In this document: one piece after another, positions 3,001 through 62,377 of the stretch
Layout of the letters: the number at the start of each line of letters is the position of its first letter
Numbering within the stretch: the first letter of the stretch is position 1
DNA from: Eledone cirrhosa
Taxonomy: Eukaryota
Assembly: GCA_964016885.1 (NCBI GenBank)
Contig: OZ024746.1
Coordinates: forward strand, 95,852,001-95,916,000
Direction: 5' to 3'
Length of the DNA: 64,000 nucleotides
Made by a program: the position numbers and the translations under genes
The notes under the pieces: model-generated
What the model was told of the DNA's origin: nothing
Seen by the model: the letters and a program-made list of their open reading frames with translations, nothing else
Database searches by the model: none

Positions 3001-6000
3001 TATAACAACAGTTAGTACTATACCAGATCATATGACATCTGGAGACATAACAGCAGTTAGTACTATACCAGACCATGTGACATCTGGAGATATAACAGCA
3101 GTTACTTCTATACCAGACCATATTACTGCTGGAAATATAACAACAGTTAGTACTATACCAGATCATATGACGTCTGGAGATATAACAGCAGTTAGTACTA
3201 TACCAGATCATATGACATCTGGAGATATAACAGCAGTTAGTACTATACCAGATCATGTGACATCTGGAGATATAACAGCAGTTACTTCTATTCCAGATCA
3301 TGTAACATCTGGAGATATAACAGCAGTTAGTACTATACCAGACCATGTGATATCTGGAGATATAACAGCTGTTAGTACTATACCAGACCACGTGACATCT
3401 GGAGATATAACAGCAGTTAGTACTATACCAGATCATATGACATCTGGAGACATAACAGCAGTTAGTACTATACCAGACCATGTGACATCTGGAGATACAG
3501 ATACTGTTAGTTCTATACCAGATCATGTGACATCTGGAGATATAACAGCTGTTAGTACTATACCAGACCATGTGACATGTGGAGATATAACAACAGTTAG
3601 TACTATACCAGATCATATGACATCTGGAGATATAACAGCATTTAGTACTATACCAGATCATGTGACATCTGGAGATATAACAGCAGTTAGTACTATACCA
3701 GATCATGTGACATCTGGAGATATAACAGCAGTTAGTACTATACCAGACCTTGTGACATCTGGAGATATAACAGCAGTTAGTACTATACTAGTTCATTTGA
3801 CATCTGGGGAGATAGACACTGTTAGTTCTATACCAGATTATGGGACATCTGGAGATAGAGTTACTGTTAGTTCAATACAAGATCGTGTAACACCTGAAGA
3901 TATAGTCACTTTTAGTTCTATACTAGATCAGGTTAAATCCGGAGAAATCACCACTGTTAGTTCTATACCAGACCATGTGACATTTGGAGATATAGACAGT
4001 GTTAGTTCTGTACTTGATCATGTGACATCTGGAGATATAGACACTGTTAGTTCTATACCAGATCATGTGGTAGATGAAGATATAATTACTGTTAGTTCTA
4101 TACCAGACCATGTGACATCTGGAGATACAGTCACTATTAGTTCTATAGCAGATTATGTGATATCTGGAGACTCAGAGACTATTAGTTCAATACCAGATCA
4201 TGCAATATCTGGATATACAGTTACTGTTACTTCAACACAATATCCTGTGACATCTGGAGATATAGTCCCTGTTAGTCCTATTGTTGATCATGTGACATCT
4301 GGAGATATAGATAGTTCTGTACCAGACTATGTGACAACTGGAGATACAGTCACTGTTAGTACTATACTAGACCATGTTACACCTGGAGATATAACAGCTA
4401 TTAGTTTTATTGCAGATCATGTTACATCTGGAGAGACCGTCAATATTAGTTTTATACCTGACCATGTGACATCTGGAGACACAACGACTGTTAGTGCTAT
4501 ACAAGACCATGTGACATCTGGAGAAATAAGAACTATTAGTTCTATATCAGATCGTTCAACATCTGGAGATGTAACAACTGTTAGCGCTCAACTAGATCAT
4601 GTGAAATCTAGGGACATAACAACTGCTAGTTCTGTGCTAGATAATGTAACATCTGGAGATATAACTACTGTTAGCTCTATACCAGACCATCTTACATCTG
4701 GAAGTATAACAACTATTAGTTCTATACCAGATCATGTTACATCTGGAGAGATAACAACTATTAGTATTGCCCCAGTTCATGCAACATCTGGAGATATAAC
4801 AACTGTTAGTTCTATACCAGATCATGTGACATCTGTAGACAGAGTCAATGTTAGTTCTGTACCAGATGTTGTAACATCTGGAGATATGACAATTACTATG
4901 TCTGTACCAGATCATGTGACATCTACTGTACCAGATGCCACAAGAACAGAATATATAATAACTCTTACAGAACCTGTGAAATCTGAAGATACAACAGAAA
5001 CAGGTGTTACTATTCCAGAATCTACCCAATTTCCAGACATTTTGATCATTACATCACATGCTGCTAGATCAGTAGATAGCACTGTATTAGAAATATCAAC
5101 ACCTGAACTACCTGTGTTGCCAGTAACTGTAACATTTGAATCAGTTGAATTAGTTAGTTCTGTGTATGAGATAACATCTCAACTGACTATTACTTCTATA
5201 CCAGTTTATAGAACAACTAAACATAAAGCAACTGTAACTATTTCTCTAACAAAACATTTAATATCTAATGATACAGAAACTGCTATGTATTTAGCAGATC
5301 CTGTATTATATACAGATAAAGAATCTATTATATTTATAACACAGCCTGTAATATCAGCACAATCAGTAGATTATACAGAGAAATATATAACAGTCAACAC
5401 TACTGGAATTGTTCATTCAATGTCAGAATATATAACAATTAAAGATACAATAGCTTTTACTTCAATACAAGAAATATTAACATCTAAAATAAATGTAAGT
5501 GATATTAGTATCACATCTAAACATACTGTGACATCTATATCTGTGCCTGTAACTGCCATGAAAGTACATGTAAGATCTAAGGGGGATGAAATTCAAATAT
5601 CATACAAAGATAGTGTACAGTTTATTTCTACACCAGATATAACAACAGCTGTAACAATTAGTTCTATAATAGACAAAGCTACACCAGCATTATCAGATAT
5701 AGCAACTGCTATTTCTACACCAGCATTATCAGATATAACAACTGGTATTTCTATACGAGTTATAACAGTTAGTTCTGTTATAGACAAAGCTAAACCAACA
5801 TTATCAGATATAACAACTGCTATTTCTGCACCAACATTATCAGATATAACAACAGCTATTTCTGCACCAACATTATCAGATATAGCAACAGATATTTCTA
5901 CACCAGTTGTAATAATTAGTTCTGTTTTGGACAAAGTCACACCAACATTATCAGATATAACAACTGTTATTTCTACACCAGTTATAACAATTGTTACAAT

Positions 6001-56261: not shown

Positions 56262-56377
56262 ACAAAACATTTTCATCTTTTGTTGGTGATGTCCTAAATG
56301 GGGATGATGAGTTATCCCCCCCTTTACACCTCCCTACCACTGTGGCTTTTGGTAAGGATTCTTATGATATTCTATAT
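56262..56377 (+). CDS. Exon: N-terminal part of NIDO-region (DKTFSSFVGDVLNGDDELSPPLHLPTTVAFGKDSYDILY)
   Basis: Acceptor tttccattgcag|AC and donor TAT|GTAAGT, phase 1 in and phase 0 out. The GDD..S..L.L....FG..Y..LY motif typically precedes (V/I)STNG in NIDO-containing proteins. Not in the ORF track; translated by hand. Confidence 0.85.
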
Positions 56378-58356: not shown

Positions 58357-58697
58357 TAATCTAACTCTTTATATTAGTTTCATAAATTAGTCCATCATTT
58401 TGATGCGTCTATAGTTGTTTCTTTGTACATCTCCTTTGCCTTTGTTGCAGTTGAGGAATGACACTATTACTTCAGTCATTGGGTATGACAGCTCCCTGTA
58501 TTACCTGATTGATTATGTGAGTGACTAGTATGTGTCATAGTTAACTGGTGTTTTAACTGGTATTTTTAGCATCTCAGCAATTATTCCTAATACTCCAGCT
58601 ACATGTATATCCTCAAAAACCCTTTCAACTCTGTAACTGTCAACTTCAGTAGCTCATCCATAATTTTCTGTTCATATTTATAATTTGTTAAATTTAA

Positions 58698-58901
58698 CCC
58701 TTTAGCATTTATATTACTCTATATATACTATTATATTTTTGTGATAAAGGCTCTATCTTACATAATTATCTCACATAATATCGAATCTATGAGATTTTGA
58801 TGTTATTTATTTTCAGAACAATACCTTAACATCAGTATGAGTTTGAACAGAAAGAGGTGAGAGAATTCTGGCCGGATATGGCCAGTTTAAATGCTAAAGG
58901 G
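58698..58901 (+). mobile_element. piggyBac-type MITE, copy 1
   Basis: TTAA|CCCTTTAGCATTTA ... TAAATGCTAAAGGG|TTAA: perfect 14-bp TIR and TTAA TSD. Confidence 0.9.
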
Positions 58902-58936
58902 TTAAATAACACATACAATATTTTTGTGTATTACAG

Positions 58937-59224
58937 ATTTCTACAAATGGTTACATAACATTTGGGAAGAAACAGAATTTTCCTTCACCTCAAAGATTTC
59001 CTGACCCTCCAAATGCTGCTATTATAGCCCCATTTTGGAGTGATTTGGTTGTGGATGAACCTGGCCGAGTAACATATAAATTCTTTGAAATAGGCAGCAA
59101 AAACTTCCATGCAGCAACGAAACTGATCAAGTCTCGTGATGAGAAGAGTTTATTTAAAAAATGGGTACTTATCATAACCTGGGAAAATGTCCAGCCGTCA
59201 AGTAGGCTAAAGAATATCACAGAG
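58937..59224 (+). CDS. Exon: NIDO domain (ISTNGYITFG...IIAPFWSDL...WVLIITWENV...)
   Basis: Acceptor gtattacag|ATT and donor GAG|GTAAGG; 288 nt, phase 0-0. Contains hallmark STNG, IAPFWxD and ITWENV motifs. Confidence 0.92.
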
Positions 59225-59311
59225 GTAAGGTTATATTTGCATCTTATTTACATTTTATTTACATCTTATTTACACCTTATTTGCATCTTATTTACATTTG
59301 CATCTTATTTA

Positions 59312-59478
59312 CCGTATTTCCCGGCATCGAAGATGCTACTTTTTTCCTAAAATAAGTCTCAAAAATCTACCATGCGTCCTGGAGGCTGAAGATTGTTTAT
59401 CATTTTTTCCAATTTTTTGGTTGTCAAAATTAGGGTGCATCCTCGAGGACAAAGCGTCTTCAGCGCCAGGAAATACGG
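59312..59478. mobile_element. Tc1/mariner-superfamily (Tc2/pogo-like) MITE
   Basis: TA|CCGTATTTCCCGGC ... GCCAGGAAATACGG|TA. It interrupts an atttgcatctt tandem repeat that continues on both sides. Confidence 0.82.
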
Positions 59479-60406
59479 TACATTTGCATCTTATTTGTAT
59501 CTTATTTGCATTTGCCTTTACATCTTATTTGCATTTGTTTGTTTGTTTGGTTGGTTGGTTGTTGTTGTTGTTGCTGCTATCATTGTTGTTGTTCTAGCTA
59601 TATCATTGTTAGTTTTGTTACTGTTGTTGTTGTTGCTGTTGTAGTTGGTGTAGTTGTTTTAGTGTTTGTTATAGTAGTTGTAGCTATATCATTGTTAGTT
59701 TTGTTGCTGTTGTTGTTTGTTTGTTTATTTGGTTGATTGATTGTTGTTGTTGCTGTTATTATTTTTGTTGTTTAAAATAAAGAAAGCATTATTGTTGTTG
59801 TTTAGCCCTAGGTCATCCTTGAACAAACACACTTATAATCGAAAGCATTTCAGTCATGAAATAGGCATAGTGTATCAAGAACAACAATATCCTATATGTT
59901 CTTCCTATTTTAAAGATGGTAGGGTATGTTTTGATCCTTGGTTCACTGTAGGAGTTATCTTATCACCAAAGGAGACAGCTGACAGCTTCATTTAGGTTTC
60001 ACATAATTTCATGATACATTTATTCACATTATGTGAAGTTTCATGGCTTAGTGGTTAGGGTGTTGTGCTCACAATCTTATGGTCATAGCTTGTTTCTAGA
60101 CTGGTGAGCAGGCTGTACCTTGAGCAAAATTTATTTTACATTGTTCCTGTCCATTCAGCTGAAAGCAAATGAGTACCAGCAGCATCCAAGATATACTCTC
60201 AGTAGTTTAATCTTCAGCGCGCTGCCAGTGACACGGGGGTGCCATAAGAGTAATCTCCCCTTAATAGATAATGCAGTGTCAGGGGAAACAACTCATAAAA
60301 ATTACTAGCGTGTTAAGGATTAAATAACACTGAACCCAGGATAAGCACTGACATGATGAACATTTGATTTTGAAACAGGCTATAACTTTTTATGCACATT
60401 AGATAA

Positions 60407-60608
60407 CCCTTTAGCATTTACATTATTCTATAATTACTATTATATTTTCATATTTTTATCTCACATAATATCAGATCTACAAGATTTTGGTGTTATTTAA
60501 TTTGAAAACAATGCCTTGATGTAGGTATGAGGGGCCAGTTACACCCGGTTTGATCAGAAATAGGTGAGAGAATTCTGGCCAGATACGGCTAGTTTAAATG
60601 CTAAATGG
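60407..60608 (+). mobile_element. piggyBac-type MITE, copy 2
   Basis: ATAA|CCCTTTAGCATTTA ... TAAATGCTAAATGG|TTAA; internal sequence homologous to copy 1. Confidence 0.88.
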
Positions 60609-60636
60609 TTAAATACCTAACCTTTTTTTTTTTCAG

Positions 60637-60850
60637 ATGGCCACCTTCCAGATGGCACTTGTCCCTACTAAGACAGAAAAAAGAACATTTTTCATCTTCA
60701 GTTATCTCCCTGGAATGCAATCTTGGACAAAAACACTGGAACATACCGAAGTATCCATTGGGTTCTCTGATGGAAACCACAACTATAAACAGAACAAGAA
60801 CTCTTTCTCGCCGTCTGCTCTGGAGTTATACCATATGAAGGGTAATACAG
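60637..60850 (+). CDS. Exon: NIDO domain C-terminal half (MATFQMALV...FIFSY...W...IGFSDG...KGNTG)
   Basis: Acceptor (t)n-cag|ATG with CTAAC branch-like site and donor ACAG|GTATGA; phase 0-1. TFQxxL, GFSDG and GNTG-xPGxW motifs match NIDO. Confidence 0.9.
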
Positions 60851-61084
60851 GTATGAAATAATGAGTAAAGAATTGTATTGTGCCAACTTCATTTAATCAT
60901 CTCCATTCCTCTAACTTTGACTGTTGTAGGTAGGTGGGTGGCTACAGGGAATAACATGTTTGTATGTGGGAAAGCATTGGAGGTGGGTGAAGAACCCTGC
61001 TTCCTTGTTTGTATATGGGAAGGCATTAAGTCTGGGGAGGTGTATCCTGCTTCCTTGTTTGTATATGGGAAGGCATTATCTAAT

Positions 61085-61270
61085 GGTGGATTGGCAATAT
61101 CGGTAAAGGGTCGGACGCCATGCTTTGACGCATAGAGTTATGGCTCTTGCCATTCTGAGTTCAAATCCAGTTGAGGTTAACTTTGCCTTTCACCCTTACG
61201 GGGTCGATAAAATAAAGTACCAGTAATACACTGGATAATTGCTGGCCTTGTGCAAAAAATAGAAACAATT
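61085..61270 (+). mobile_element. tRNA-derived SINE (further copies ~61288-61427 +, ~62767-62977 -, ~63010-63222 +, ~63445-63580 +)
   Basis: ggtggattggca (A-box-like) ... gagttcaaatcc (B-box-like) ... aactttgcctttca.cctt.cggggtcgataaa ... gctggccttgtg. Confidence 0.8.
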
Positions 61271-61716
61271 ATCTAATGTGTCCTCATGGTAGTGGATTGG
61301 CAGTATCAGTAGACTGTTGTACTAAATACTATGCAGTATTTAGTTAAACATTTCTACATTCTGAGTTCAAATCCCACTGAAATCAACATTGTCTTGCATC
61401 CTTCTGGGGTTCATAAAATAAAGTAACAAACACTCAAACAAACACTCAAACATGCACACAAACATGTGCACACACACACACACACACACACGCACACACA
61501 CACACACACATACACACACAGTCATCATGTCTAGACACACACATGCACAAACACAAAGGCACACACACACACACTATACATCCATCAGAGTTATTTCTAA
61601 TCTAGTTTCTCTAGTCCAAATCCATTTTTTCATGCCGCCATTTTATTTTCAGTTCTACAACATTTACTGTTTTCTTTTTCTTTTTTTAAACTTTCACACA
61701 CACAAAATAAAATTAA

Positions 61717-61925
61717 CCCTTTAACATTTACTTTACTCTATATTTACTATTGTATTTTCACAGTAAAGGCTTTACCTCACATAATTATCTCACATAATAT
61801 CAAAGCTACGACATTTTGATATTATTTATTTTGAGAACAATACCTTAACATCAGTATGAGCAGCTGGAGAACAGAAAGAGGTGAGAGAATTCTGGCTGGA
61901 CACAGCCAGTTTAAATTCTAAAGGG
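61717..61925 (+). mobile_element. piggyBac-type MITE, copy 3
   Basis: TTAA|CCCTTTAACATTTA ... TAAATTCTAAAGGG|TTAA; internal sequence homologous to copies 1 and 2. Confidence 0.88.
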
Positions 61926-61951
61926 TTAATTGAAATATTTTTTTACTTCAG

Positions 61952-62377
61952 GCAAACCAGGTGTTTGGGTTGAAACAATTGAAAACGACTTAGACATGCG
62001 AAGGCAACAATGCTTAAACTATGCATATTCTTCCGACTACTGGACCAACGCTCTATCCCATACCTGTCCATGTATACAGACACAAGCAAAAGCAGATTTT
62101 CGATTTAAATTTGTTTCCAGAGAAAATGGTACTTTAAAATTTGAAAGTATTTTTTCCCAGAATGGTCTGAAAGAACAATGTGTTTATGGCAATAGTTCAT
62201 TTGGTGAAACATTGATCATAGGCAGTCCTTTAGGAGGTTCAATCAGTGTTGATAATACAGATACTCTCGATAAACGGATGAAGAAGTTTTGCTGTGAAGG
62301 AATTCCATCTTACTGTAATCAGTACTACAGTCGGAGACCATCATCAAGTTGCAAGAATTATCTTCCTCCGAAACTAG
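61952..62377 (+). CDS. Exon: end of NIDO plus AMOP domain (GKPGVW...QCLNY...CPCIQTQAKADFRF...QCVY...FCC...YCNQYYSRRPSSSCKNYLPP)
   Basis: Acceptor ttttacttcag|GC and donor CTAG|GTAAGT; 426 nt, phase 1-1. CPC...QA..D.RF, QCxY and CC...C..Y..RRP...C..Y.PP are AMOP hallmarks as in MUC4/SUSD2/Mesh. Confidence 0.92.

What the first reader, a model, noticed from the sequence alone, without database searches (positions are those of the whole stretch)
58694..61951. The same piggyBac-type MITE sits just upstream of the 3' splice site in three consecutive introns, in the same orientation
Seen: three ~205-bp homologous elements with CCCTTTAGCATTTA TIRs and TTAA-type TSDs end 35, 28 and 26 nt before the exons at 58937, 60637 and 61952. 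All face the same way, and I saw no full copy elsewhere in ~14 kb of intron. Their right TTAA falls in the branch-point zone (copy 3 gives TTAAT; copy 2 is followed by CTAAC). The three exons are not duplicates of each other, so segmental duplication does not explain this. Inference: either the transposase targets TTAA at branch points/3' splice sites, or copies are retained because they aid acceptor definition, i.e. a transposon-derived splicing element.
Basis: partly seen in the sequence, partly recalled or inferred. Interest (0 to 1): 0.85.

Follow-up and report, generated by a model that had tools for sequence, protein, structure and literature searches.

The report
Octopus MITE trio beside splice acceptors
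Three separate copies of a very common small jumping-DNA element sit just in front of three neighbouring exons of a likely octopus mucin gene, but across the genome the element shows no preference for that spot or direction, so the trio is most likely a coincidence.

Summary
Three 202-209 bp copies of one TTAA-flanked MITE, all on the + strand, end 35, 28 and 26 nt before three consecutive NIDO/AMOP-region exons of a mucin-4-like gene (87% identical to Octopus bimaculoides). The element is piggyBac-derived: it shares its inverted ends and one terminus with an intact 2,575-bp piggyBac in this genome, and has roughly 43,000 copies. The three copies are independent insertions.

The general inference fails its own test. 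Among 33,689 exact MITE ends, acceptor-like motifs lie 18-52 nt away no more often than 118-152 nt away (303 vs 278; ratio 1.09, 95% CI 0.92-1.29). Called exons were 11 vs 14 of 140 each, with no orientation bias. The right-hand TTAA is duplicated host target, so the MITE adds no branch point.

The trio is still rare by chance: 0.0001-0.6 expected per genome, about 0.01 centrally. A gene-specific effect is therefore not excluded. No RNA or orthologous introns could be examined. The scan's notes hold no earlier report of this pattern.

The parts
58694..58905 (+). MITE copy 1, TTAA to TTAA, perfect 14-bp TIRs; ends 31 nt (TSD) or 35 nt (TIR) before the exon at 58937
60403..60612 (+). MITE copy 2; left TSD reads ATAA, one mismatch in the right TIR; the most diverged copy (14% from the family majority); ends 24/28 nt before the exon at 60637
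61713..61929 (+). MITE copy 3; one mismatch in each TIR; ends 22/26 nt before the exon at 61952
56262..56377 (+). preceding exon of the mucin-4-like gene; no MITE at its acceptor
58937..59224 (+). coding exon, NIDO domain first part
60637..60850 (+). coding exon, NIDO domain second part
61952..62377 (+). coding exon after NIDO (cysteine-rich; AMOP-like by recall, no Pfam hit), 87% identical to P0001
60617..60621 (+). CTAAC branch-point-like word in host sequence, outside copy 2
61926..61930 (+). TTAAT branch-point-like word made of the duplicated host TTAA plus a host T
58855..58861 (+). donor-like AG|GTGAG inside copy 1 (GT at 58857; the same site at 60564 in copy 2 and 61881 in copy 3), 80, 73 and 71 nt before the host exon; use untested

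Best explanation
Three independent copies of an abundant piggyBac-derived MITE inserted at host TTAA sites in short introns of a mucin-4-like gene, and their shared position and direction are most likely a tolerated coincidence rather than targeting or a splicing function. Shown: family identity, copy number, independence of the three copies, and no genome-wide enrichment or strand bias at acceptor-like motifs. Inferred: a piggyBac transposase moved them in an old burst (median 9% divergence from the family majority). These three introns are short, hold few TTAA (13, 7 and 6) and are the only 3 of 11 introns examined in the gene with a TTAA 18-52 nt before the acceptor. The gene lies in a MITE-dense region (13 copies in the 120 kb downstream). 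Insertion duplicates the TTAA, so the host sequence from TTAA to AG is unchanged. The TIRs are predicted to fold the element into one hairpin, which would help splicing ignore it.
For: Near vs far acceptor motifs: 204 vs 198 and 99 (copy 1 removed) vs 80; pooled ratio 1.09, 95% CI 0.92-1.29. Exon calls in 140 near and 140 far fetched matches: Pfam 3 vs 8; codon-and-donor score 12 vs 14; combined 11 vs 14, ratio CI 0.32-1.86. Orientation: 57:43 vs 55:45 in the first 100 listed matches of each; 6:5 vs 9:5 among called exons. No clustering by gene elsewhere: 0 of 19 further copies around 10 acceptor-adjacent copies face an exon-like acceptor (judged by eye). The copies are not each other's closest relatives (from copy 1, ranks 154 and 196 of 203; shared derived bases 3, 1 and 5, within the random range). 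Copy 1 carries a different internal variant from copies 2 and 3, and the left flanks are unrelated (p 0.95, 0.31, 0.49). Hairpins are predicted in all three (z -6.2, -1.7, -5.6).
Against: The trio is improbable. Expected same-direction triples are 0.0001 to 0.6 per genome, about 0.01 for middle assumptions (the acceptor number of 150,000-170,000 and the clustering factors are my assumptions). Only about 1,315 windows of this genome carry notes, roughly 3% of it, which makes a chance sighting rarer still unless one allows for the many other patterns that could have been noticed. Given one insertion in each intron, all three in the zone and in one direction has p about 0.002. The motifs catch only 4 of 13 acceptors of this gene, and 1 of the 10 without a MITE. 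Exon calls rest on sequence alone. The far control would not reveal enrichment spread evenly over the last 150 nt of introns.
Confidence: 0.74

Rival explanations
1. Gene-specific retention: the insertions were random, but selection kept these three in this gene because a MITE hairpin or its internal donor-like site 71-80 nt before the acceptor would tune splicing of exons that follow a giant mucin exon.
For: The low chance probability of the trio. All three keep a donor-like GGTGAG at a similar distance from the AG. Copy 1's acceptor-side 60 nt differ from the family majority at only 1 position against a family mean of 5.5.
Against: Copies 2 and 3 show no such conservation (7 and 6 differences). 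The donor-like site is a family feature (120 of 201 full copies), so its distance follows from the insertion position. Copy 1 seeded the search that supplied part of the family set, which biases it toward the majority. No other gene examined shows a cluster (0 of 19).
Confidence: 0.14
2. A weak general preference (up to about twofold) for TTAA words near acceptors, because branch-point-like TTAAY words are long-lived targets or the DNA there is more open, which would make such trios several times more likely without any function.
For: The second motif gave 99 vs 80 (ratio 1.24, p 0.18). The confidence intervals of the exon calls reach 1.6-2.0. Neighbouring copies lean toward the same direction (45 of 73 pairs, p 0.06).
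Against: Point estimates from called exons are at or below 1. At least 11 of the first 100 near matches come from a single other repeat that the MITE inserts into, which inflates the near count. Only 1 of the 3 TTAA sites reads as TTAAY.
Confidence: 0.07
3. Local copying: one MITE, or a MITE plus intron end, would have been spread between the three introns by local hopping or gene conversion.
For: The copies lie within 3.3 kb and share direction. Local hopping of piggyBac is recalled from the literature (search listing only). A copying event at the time of the burst would leave few shared marks.
Against: Copy 1 vs copy 3 ranks 154 of 203 and copy 1 vs copy 2 ranks 196. They carry different internal variants and different deletions, and the flanks are not homologous. 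Hopping alone would not choose acceptor-side TTAA sites.
Confidence: 0.03
4. One reading: the transposase targets branch points or 3' splice sites, or copies are kept genome-wide in one direction as acceptor-defining elements.
For: Only the trio itself, and the existence of other copies 18-52 nt before real exons (for example DCDC1, ZFYVE26 and filamin exons).
Against: One expected trio per genome needs about 3% of acceptors to carry a MITE end in the zone; the estimate is 0.15-1%, no higher than at 118-152 nt. Acceptor-adjacent copies face both ways (6 right, 5 left). Flanks of 241 full copies show a near-symmetric bias next to the TTAA (T at -1 0.49, A at +1 0.47) and no pyrimidine tract on either side.
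Confidence: 0.02

Closest known systems
MER85, the MITE derived from human piggyBac PGBD3 (PMC2268245, passages seen)
   Same: A short non-coding element made of the ends of a piggyBac, flanked by TTAA and presumed to be moved in trans.
   Different: This family has about 43,000 copies against 613. It matches its autonomous relative at only 63% over 164 columns, so the exact parent is not identified. PGBD3 works as an exon trap through its own 3' splice site; these copies lie antisense to the transposase direction and bring no acceptor to the host junction.
piggyBac-like elements, PBLE (PMC5381638, passages seen)
   Same: TTAA target duplication, TIRs of 12-19 bp, and an intact DDE_Tnp_1_7 transposase family in this genome with nearly the same TIR.
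   Different: The window's copies are non-autonomous and old (5-14% from the family majority), while 14 of 30 fetched transposase loci are 98-100% identical over full length.
Intronic under-representation zones of TEs near mammalian exons (PMC3088655, passages seen)
   Same: The same question of distance and orientation relative to splice sites; DNA transposons there are depleted within 50-100 bp of exons. The Pfam-confirmed count here (3 near vs 8 far) leans that way.
   Different: Depletion is not significant here (p 0.22), and three tolerated copies sit inside that zone in one gene.
TIR-transposon expansion in Octopus vulgaris at Jukes-Cantor distance 0.09, about 25 million years ago (PMC13282606, parts 1-2 of 3 read)
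   Same: This family's median divergence from its majority sequence is 0.088; piggyBac and MITE families and TE hot spots are reported in that genome.
   Different: The species of this genome is not established. The parts read do not analyse position relative to splice sites. The paper's TE library and supplement were not seen and may already hold this family.

Membership tests
piggyBac-derived MITE | TTAA target-site duplication | tested here: met
   Copies 1 and 3 have TTAA on both sides, copy 2 ATAA/TTAA. 233 of 241 full copies have TTAA at both ends (the model includes TTAA, so this is biased upward).
piggyBac-derived MITE | TIR of 12-19 bp starting with CCC | tested here: met
   14-bp TIR, 6 matches vs 0.45 expected.
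piggyBac-derived MITE | short, no transposase, high copy number | tested here: met
   202-209 bp; 17,688 exact right ends; 28 of 68 unselected right ends are exact, giving about 43,000 copies, interval 33,000-60,000.
piggyBac-derived MITE | ends homologous to an autonomous piggyBac of the same genome | tested here: met
   2,575-bp element with an open 558-561 aa PF13843 frame; its TIRs match the MITE's at 13 and 12 of 14 bases; copy 1 positions 73-212 align to its first 163 nt, 63% identity, E 1e-8.
piggyBac-derived MITE | mobilised by that transposase with precise excision | not testable with these tools
   Needs a transposition assay or empty sites in relatives.
transposon-derived (exapted) splicing element | enriched next to acceptors across the genome | tested here: not met
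   303 vs 278 motif matches; 11 vs 14 called exons of 140 each.
transposon-derived (exapted) splicing element | orientation bias relative to the host gene | tested here: not met
   57:43 vs 55:45; 6:5 vs 9:5 among called exons. The second sample is small.
transposon-derived (exapted) splicing element | contributes a new branch point, pyrimidine tract or AG | tested here: not met
   The tract and AG lie outside all three copies; CTAAC is host sequence; TTAAT is the duplicated target plus a host base.
transposon-derived (exapted) splicing element | conserved more than neutral copies | tested here: inconclusive
   Acceptor-side 60 nt: 1, 7 and 6 differences vs a family mean of 5.5. No orthologous introns were obtained.
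transposon-derived (exapted) splicing element | changes splicing when removed or inverted | not testable with these tools
   No RNA holder was listed; needs RNA-seq or a minigene.
PGBD3-type piggyBac exon trap | 3' splice site directly before the transposase frame, in sense to the host gene | tested here: not met
   The three copies hold only the first part of the 5' terminus and lie antisense to the transposase direction. Whether the autonomous element itself has such a site was only looked at by eye.

The most novel reading that the evidence does not exclude
In this one mucin gene, selection fixed three independent piggyBac-MITE insertions at the same place in consecutive introns, because a MITE hairpin carrying a donor-like site 71-80 nt before the acceptor tunes splicing downstream of a giant repeat exon: repeated, gene-specific recruitment of one transposon as a splicing part.
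Probability: 0.12. Interest if true: 0.7.

Novelty: new member of a known kind. Interest (0 to 1): 0.17.

Why it matters
As found, it matters little: one more abundant piggyBac MITE family in a cephalopod, with a striking but isolated cluster. The useful result is negative. The family neither targets nor is generally kept at 3' splice sites, and a 200-bp TTAA element can be tolerated about 20-30 nt from an acceptor because it leaves the host TTAA-to-AG stretch intact. If gene-specific retention were true, it would be a rare case of the same transposon recruited three times in one gene, and it is directly testable with existing octopus genomes and a minigene.

Tried and rejected
Segmental or intron-end duplication: rejected. 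A strict first pattern (right end plus TTTTTCAG) gave 5 matches, none clearly an exon by eye; its denominator was not measured, so I did not use it as a test.

Orthologous introns and RNA: no RNA holder was listed. No read or contig overlay of the region was obtained, so empty sites in relatives and use of the junctions stay unexamined. A metagenome scan with the first exon found no relative among 221 candidate stretches.

A donor-side control gave 916 near vs 695 far. At least 12 of the first 100 near matches are the MITE's own internal sequence in tandem or rearranged copies, and I could not check the rest for real exons, so it is inconclusive.

Rows set aside before the Pfam count: L212 (tandem repeat), L292 (weak, E 0.009) and L398 (coiled-coil hits). 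Keeping them gives 4 near vs 10 far.

Literature: searches (listings and abstract starts only) showed no paper describing MITEs enriched at branch points, or this family. The library lacks most subscription journals.

Full report
What is there. The window ends in the 3' part of a mucin-4-like gene. The exon at 61952 matches Octopus bimaculoides mucin-4-like at 87% and an Argonauta mucin at 72%. tblastn maps the exon series from the mucin repeat region to about 24 kb beyond the window. The genome is 3.0 Gb, so an octopod is likely; the species is not established. Three homologous elements lie at 58694-58905, 60403-60612 and 61713-61929, all on +, with 14-bp TIRs and TTAA-type target duplications. 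Their TIRs end 35, 28 and 26 nt before exons 58937-59224, 60637-60850 and 61952-62377, which are consecutive and in frame. Copy 1 is 85% identical to copy 3 and 72% to copy 2 with gaps counted.

What the element is. The exact right-end 20-mer occurs 17,688 times, and left plus right exact ends 33,689 times. Of 68 right ends not selected by a search, 28 are exact, which gives about 43,000 copies (33,000-60,000). Copies are clumped: 1 per 9 kb beside another copy, 13 in the 120 kb downstream of the window, none scoring in the 80 kb upstream. A search with the piggyBac transposase family PF13843 found a 2,575-bp TTAA-bounded element with an open frame of about 560 residues and nearly the same TIR. 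The MITE's right two-thirds align to that element's first 163 nt (63%, E 1e-8). The MITE is thus a piggyBac derivative, about 9% diverged from its majority sequence. The autonomous copies are much younger (14 of 30 loci at 98-100% over full length), so they are relatives and not shown to be the mobiliser.

Are the three copies independent? Among 203 other full copies, copy 3 ranks 154th and copy 2 196th in identity to copy 1. Shared non-majority bases are 3, 1 and 5, within the range for random copies. Copy 1 carries one internal variant and copies 2 and 3 the other, and the left flanks align no better than shuffles.

Genome-wide test of targeting or retention. Without an annotation I counted exact MITE ends followed by an acceptor-like motif whose AG ends 18-52 nt away (near) or 118-152 nt away (far). 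A strong-tract motif gave 204 vs 198. A second motif, built to fit the interrupted tracts of copies 1 and 3, gave 100 (99 without copy 1 itself) vs 80. Pooled, the ratio is 1.09, 95% CI 0.92-1.29. Most matches are background, so I fetched 140 of the 303 near and 140 of the 278 far matches, taken in listing order, and called exons. Pfam confirmed 3 near and 8 far (three repeat, weak or coiled-coil hits set aside). A codon-and-donor score trained on this gene alone passed 12 and 14 at the 95th decoy percentile. Combined it is 11 vs 14, ratio CI 0.32-1.86. Right and left ends were 57:43 near and 55:45 far in the first 100 listed matches (tallied by hand), and 6:5 vs 9:5 among called exons. Around 10 acceptor-adjacent copies elsewhere, 0 of 19 further copies within about 11 kb faced an exon-like acceptor.

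Limits of that test. It sees only exact ends; of the three window copies only copy 1 qualifies. The motifs catch 4 of 13 acceptors of this gene. Exon calls have no RNA support. Enrichment spread evenly over the last 150 nt of introns would be missed.

How unlikely is the trio? Scaling the calls up, 0.3-1.3% of MITE ends face an acceptor in the 35-nt zone, and 0.15-1% of acceptors have an end there. One trio per genome would need about 3%. Expected same-direction trios range from 0.0001 to 0.6 per genome, about 0.01 for middle values (the acceptor number and clustering factors are assumed). Local facts soften this. The introns are short, hold 13, 7 and 6 TTAA, and are the only 3 of 11 examined with a TTAA in the zone. 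About half their length is repeated sequence. Neighbouring copies lean to the same direction (45 of 73, p 0.06). The distance, the side and the family were also chosen after the fact. Against this, only about 1,315 windows of this genome carry notes. Chance is the best reading but not a comfortable one.

How it most likely works. Shown: TTAA insertion, independence, and no general bias. From the piggyBac mechanism (PMC5381638, passages seen): insertion duplicates the host TTAA, so everything from the right TTAA to the AG is the pre-insertion sequence. Copy 3's TTAAT and copy 2's CTAAC are host words, and copy 1 has no YTNAY word there. The MITE adds no branch point, tract or AG. Predicted: the TIRs close each copy into a hairpin (copy 2 weakly). 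Inferred: this makes the insertions near-neutral even inside the 50-100 bp zone where mammalian DNA transposons are depleted (PMC3088655, passages seen).

Comparison and verdict. It works like, and meets the testable features of, a piggyBac MITE such as MER85 (PMC2268245, passages seen). It fails the tested features of an exapted splicing element. Its age matches the TIR burst reported for O. vulgaris (PMC13282606, parts 1-2 of 3 read; library and supplement not seen). Searches listed nothing on MITE enrichment at branch points. Verdict: a real feature, a new member of a known kind, most likely coincidental (0.74). Gene-specific retention remains the bold alternative (about 0.12-0.14). Interest 0.17.

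Noticed in passing
L147-L175 (for example L151:973-3547): A young autonomous piggyBac family, 2,575 bp, with an open transposase frame; 14 of 30 fetched loci are 98-100% identical over full length, so it may still be active. A second family with TIR CCCTTTCGTTACC is also present (L156, L159, L161, L163, L166, L168, L172).
   Followed up: partly
window 58817-58856; donor-like GT at 58857, 60564, 61881: The MITE's + strand carries a consensus-like donor AG|GTGAG about 45 nt from its right end (120 of 201 full copies). In copy 1 a TTTTCAG lies 40 nt upstream, outlining a possible 40-nt cryptic exon. Use is untested.
   Followed up: partly
genome-wide: MITE ends face a donor-like motif more often at gap 6-40 than at 106-140 nt (916 vs 695). 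At least 12 of the first 100 near matches are the MITE's own sequence; the remaining excess is unverified and might reflect more copies just after donors.
   Followed up: partly
listing (for example L102, L105, L107, L110): At least 11 of the first 100 matches show the MITE inserted at the same TTAA of another dispersed repeat, a recurrent nested target.
   Followed up: no
L036, about 4665 (window-extended 68665): A different TTAA element end (TTAACCCTTTTG) starts about 13 nt after the donor of the exon at 68471 in the same gene.
   Followed up: no
L038, about 3892-3978 (window-extended 87892-87978): A right-half fragment of the MITE on + ends about 120 nt before the last exon's acceptor of the same gene.
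   Followed up: partly
window about 600-49300: A very long mucin-type repeat region: a 45-bp unit with over 200 copies near the start, further short-period repeats and long open frames on both strands. No MITE copy lies in it.
   Followed up: no
loci with two or more copies: Neighbouring MITE copies 20-3,000 nt apart are in the same direction in 45 of 73 pairs (25 of 37 at 500-1,500 nt), a possible loss of inverted pairs.
   Followed up: partly
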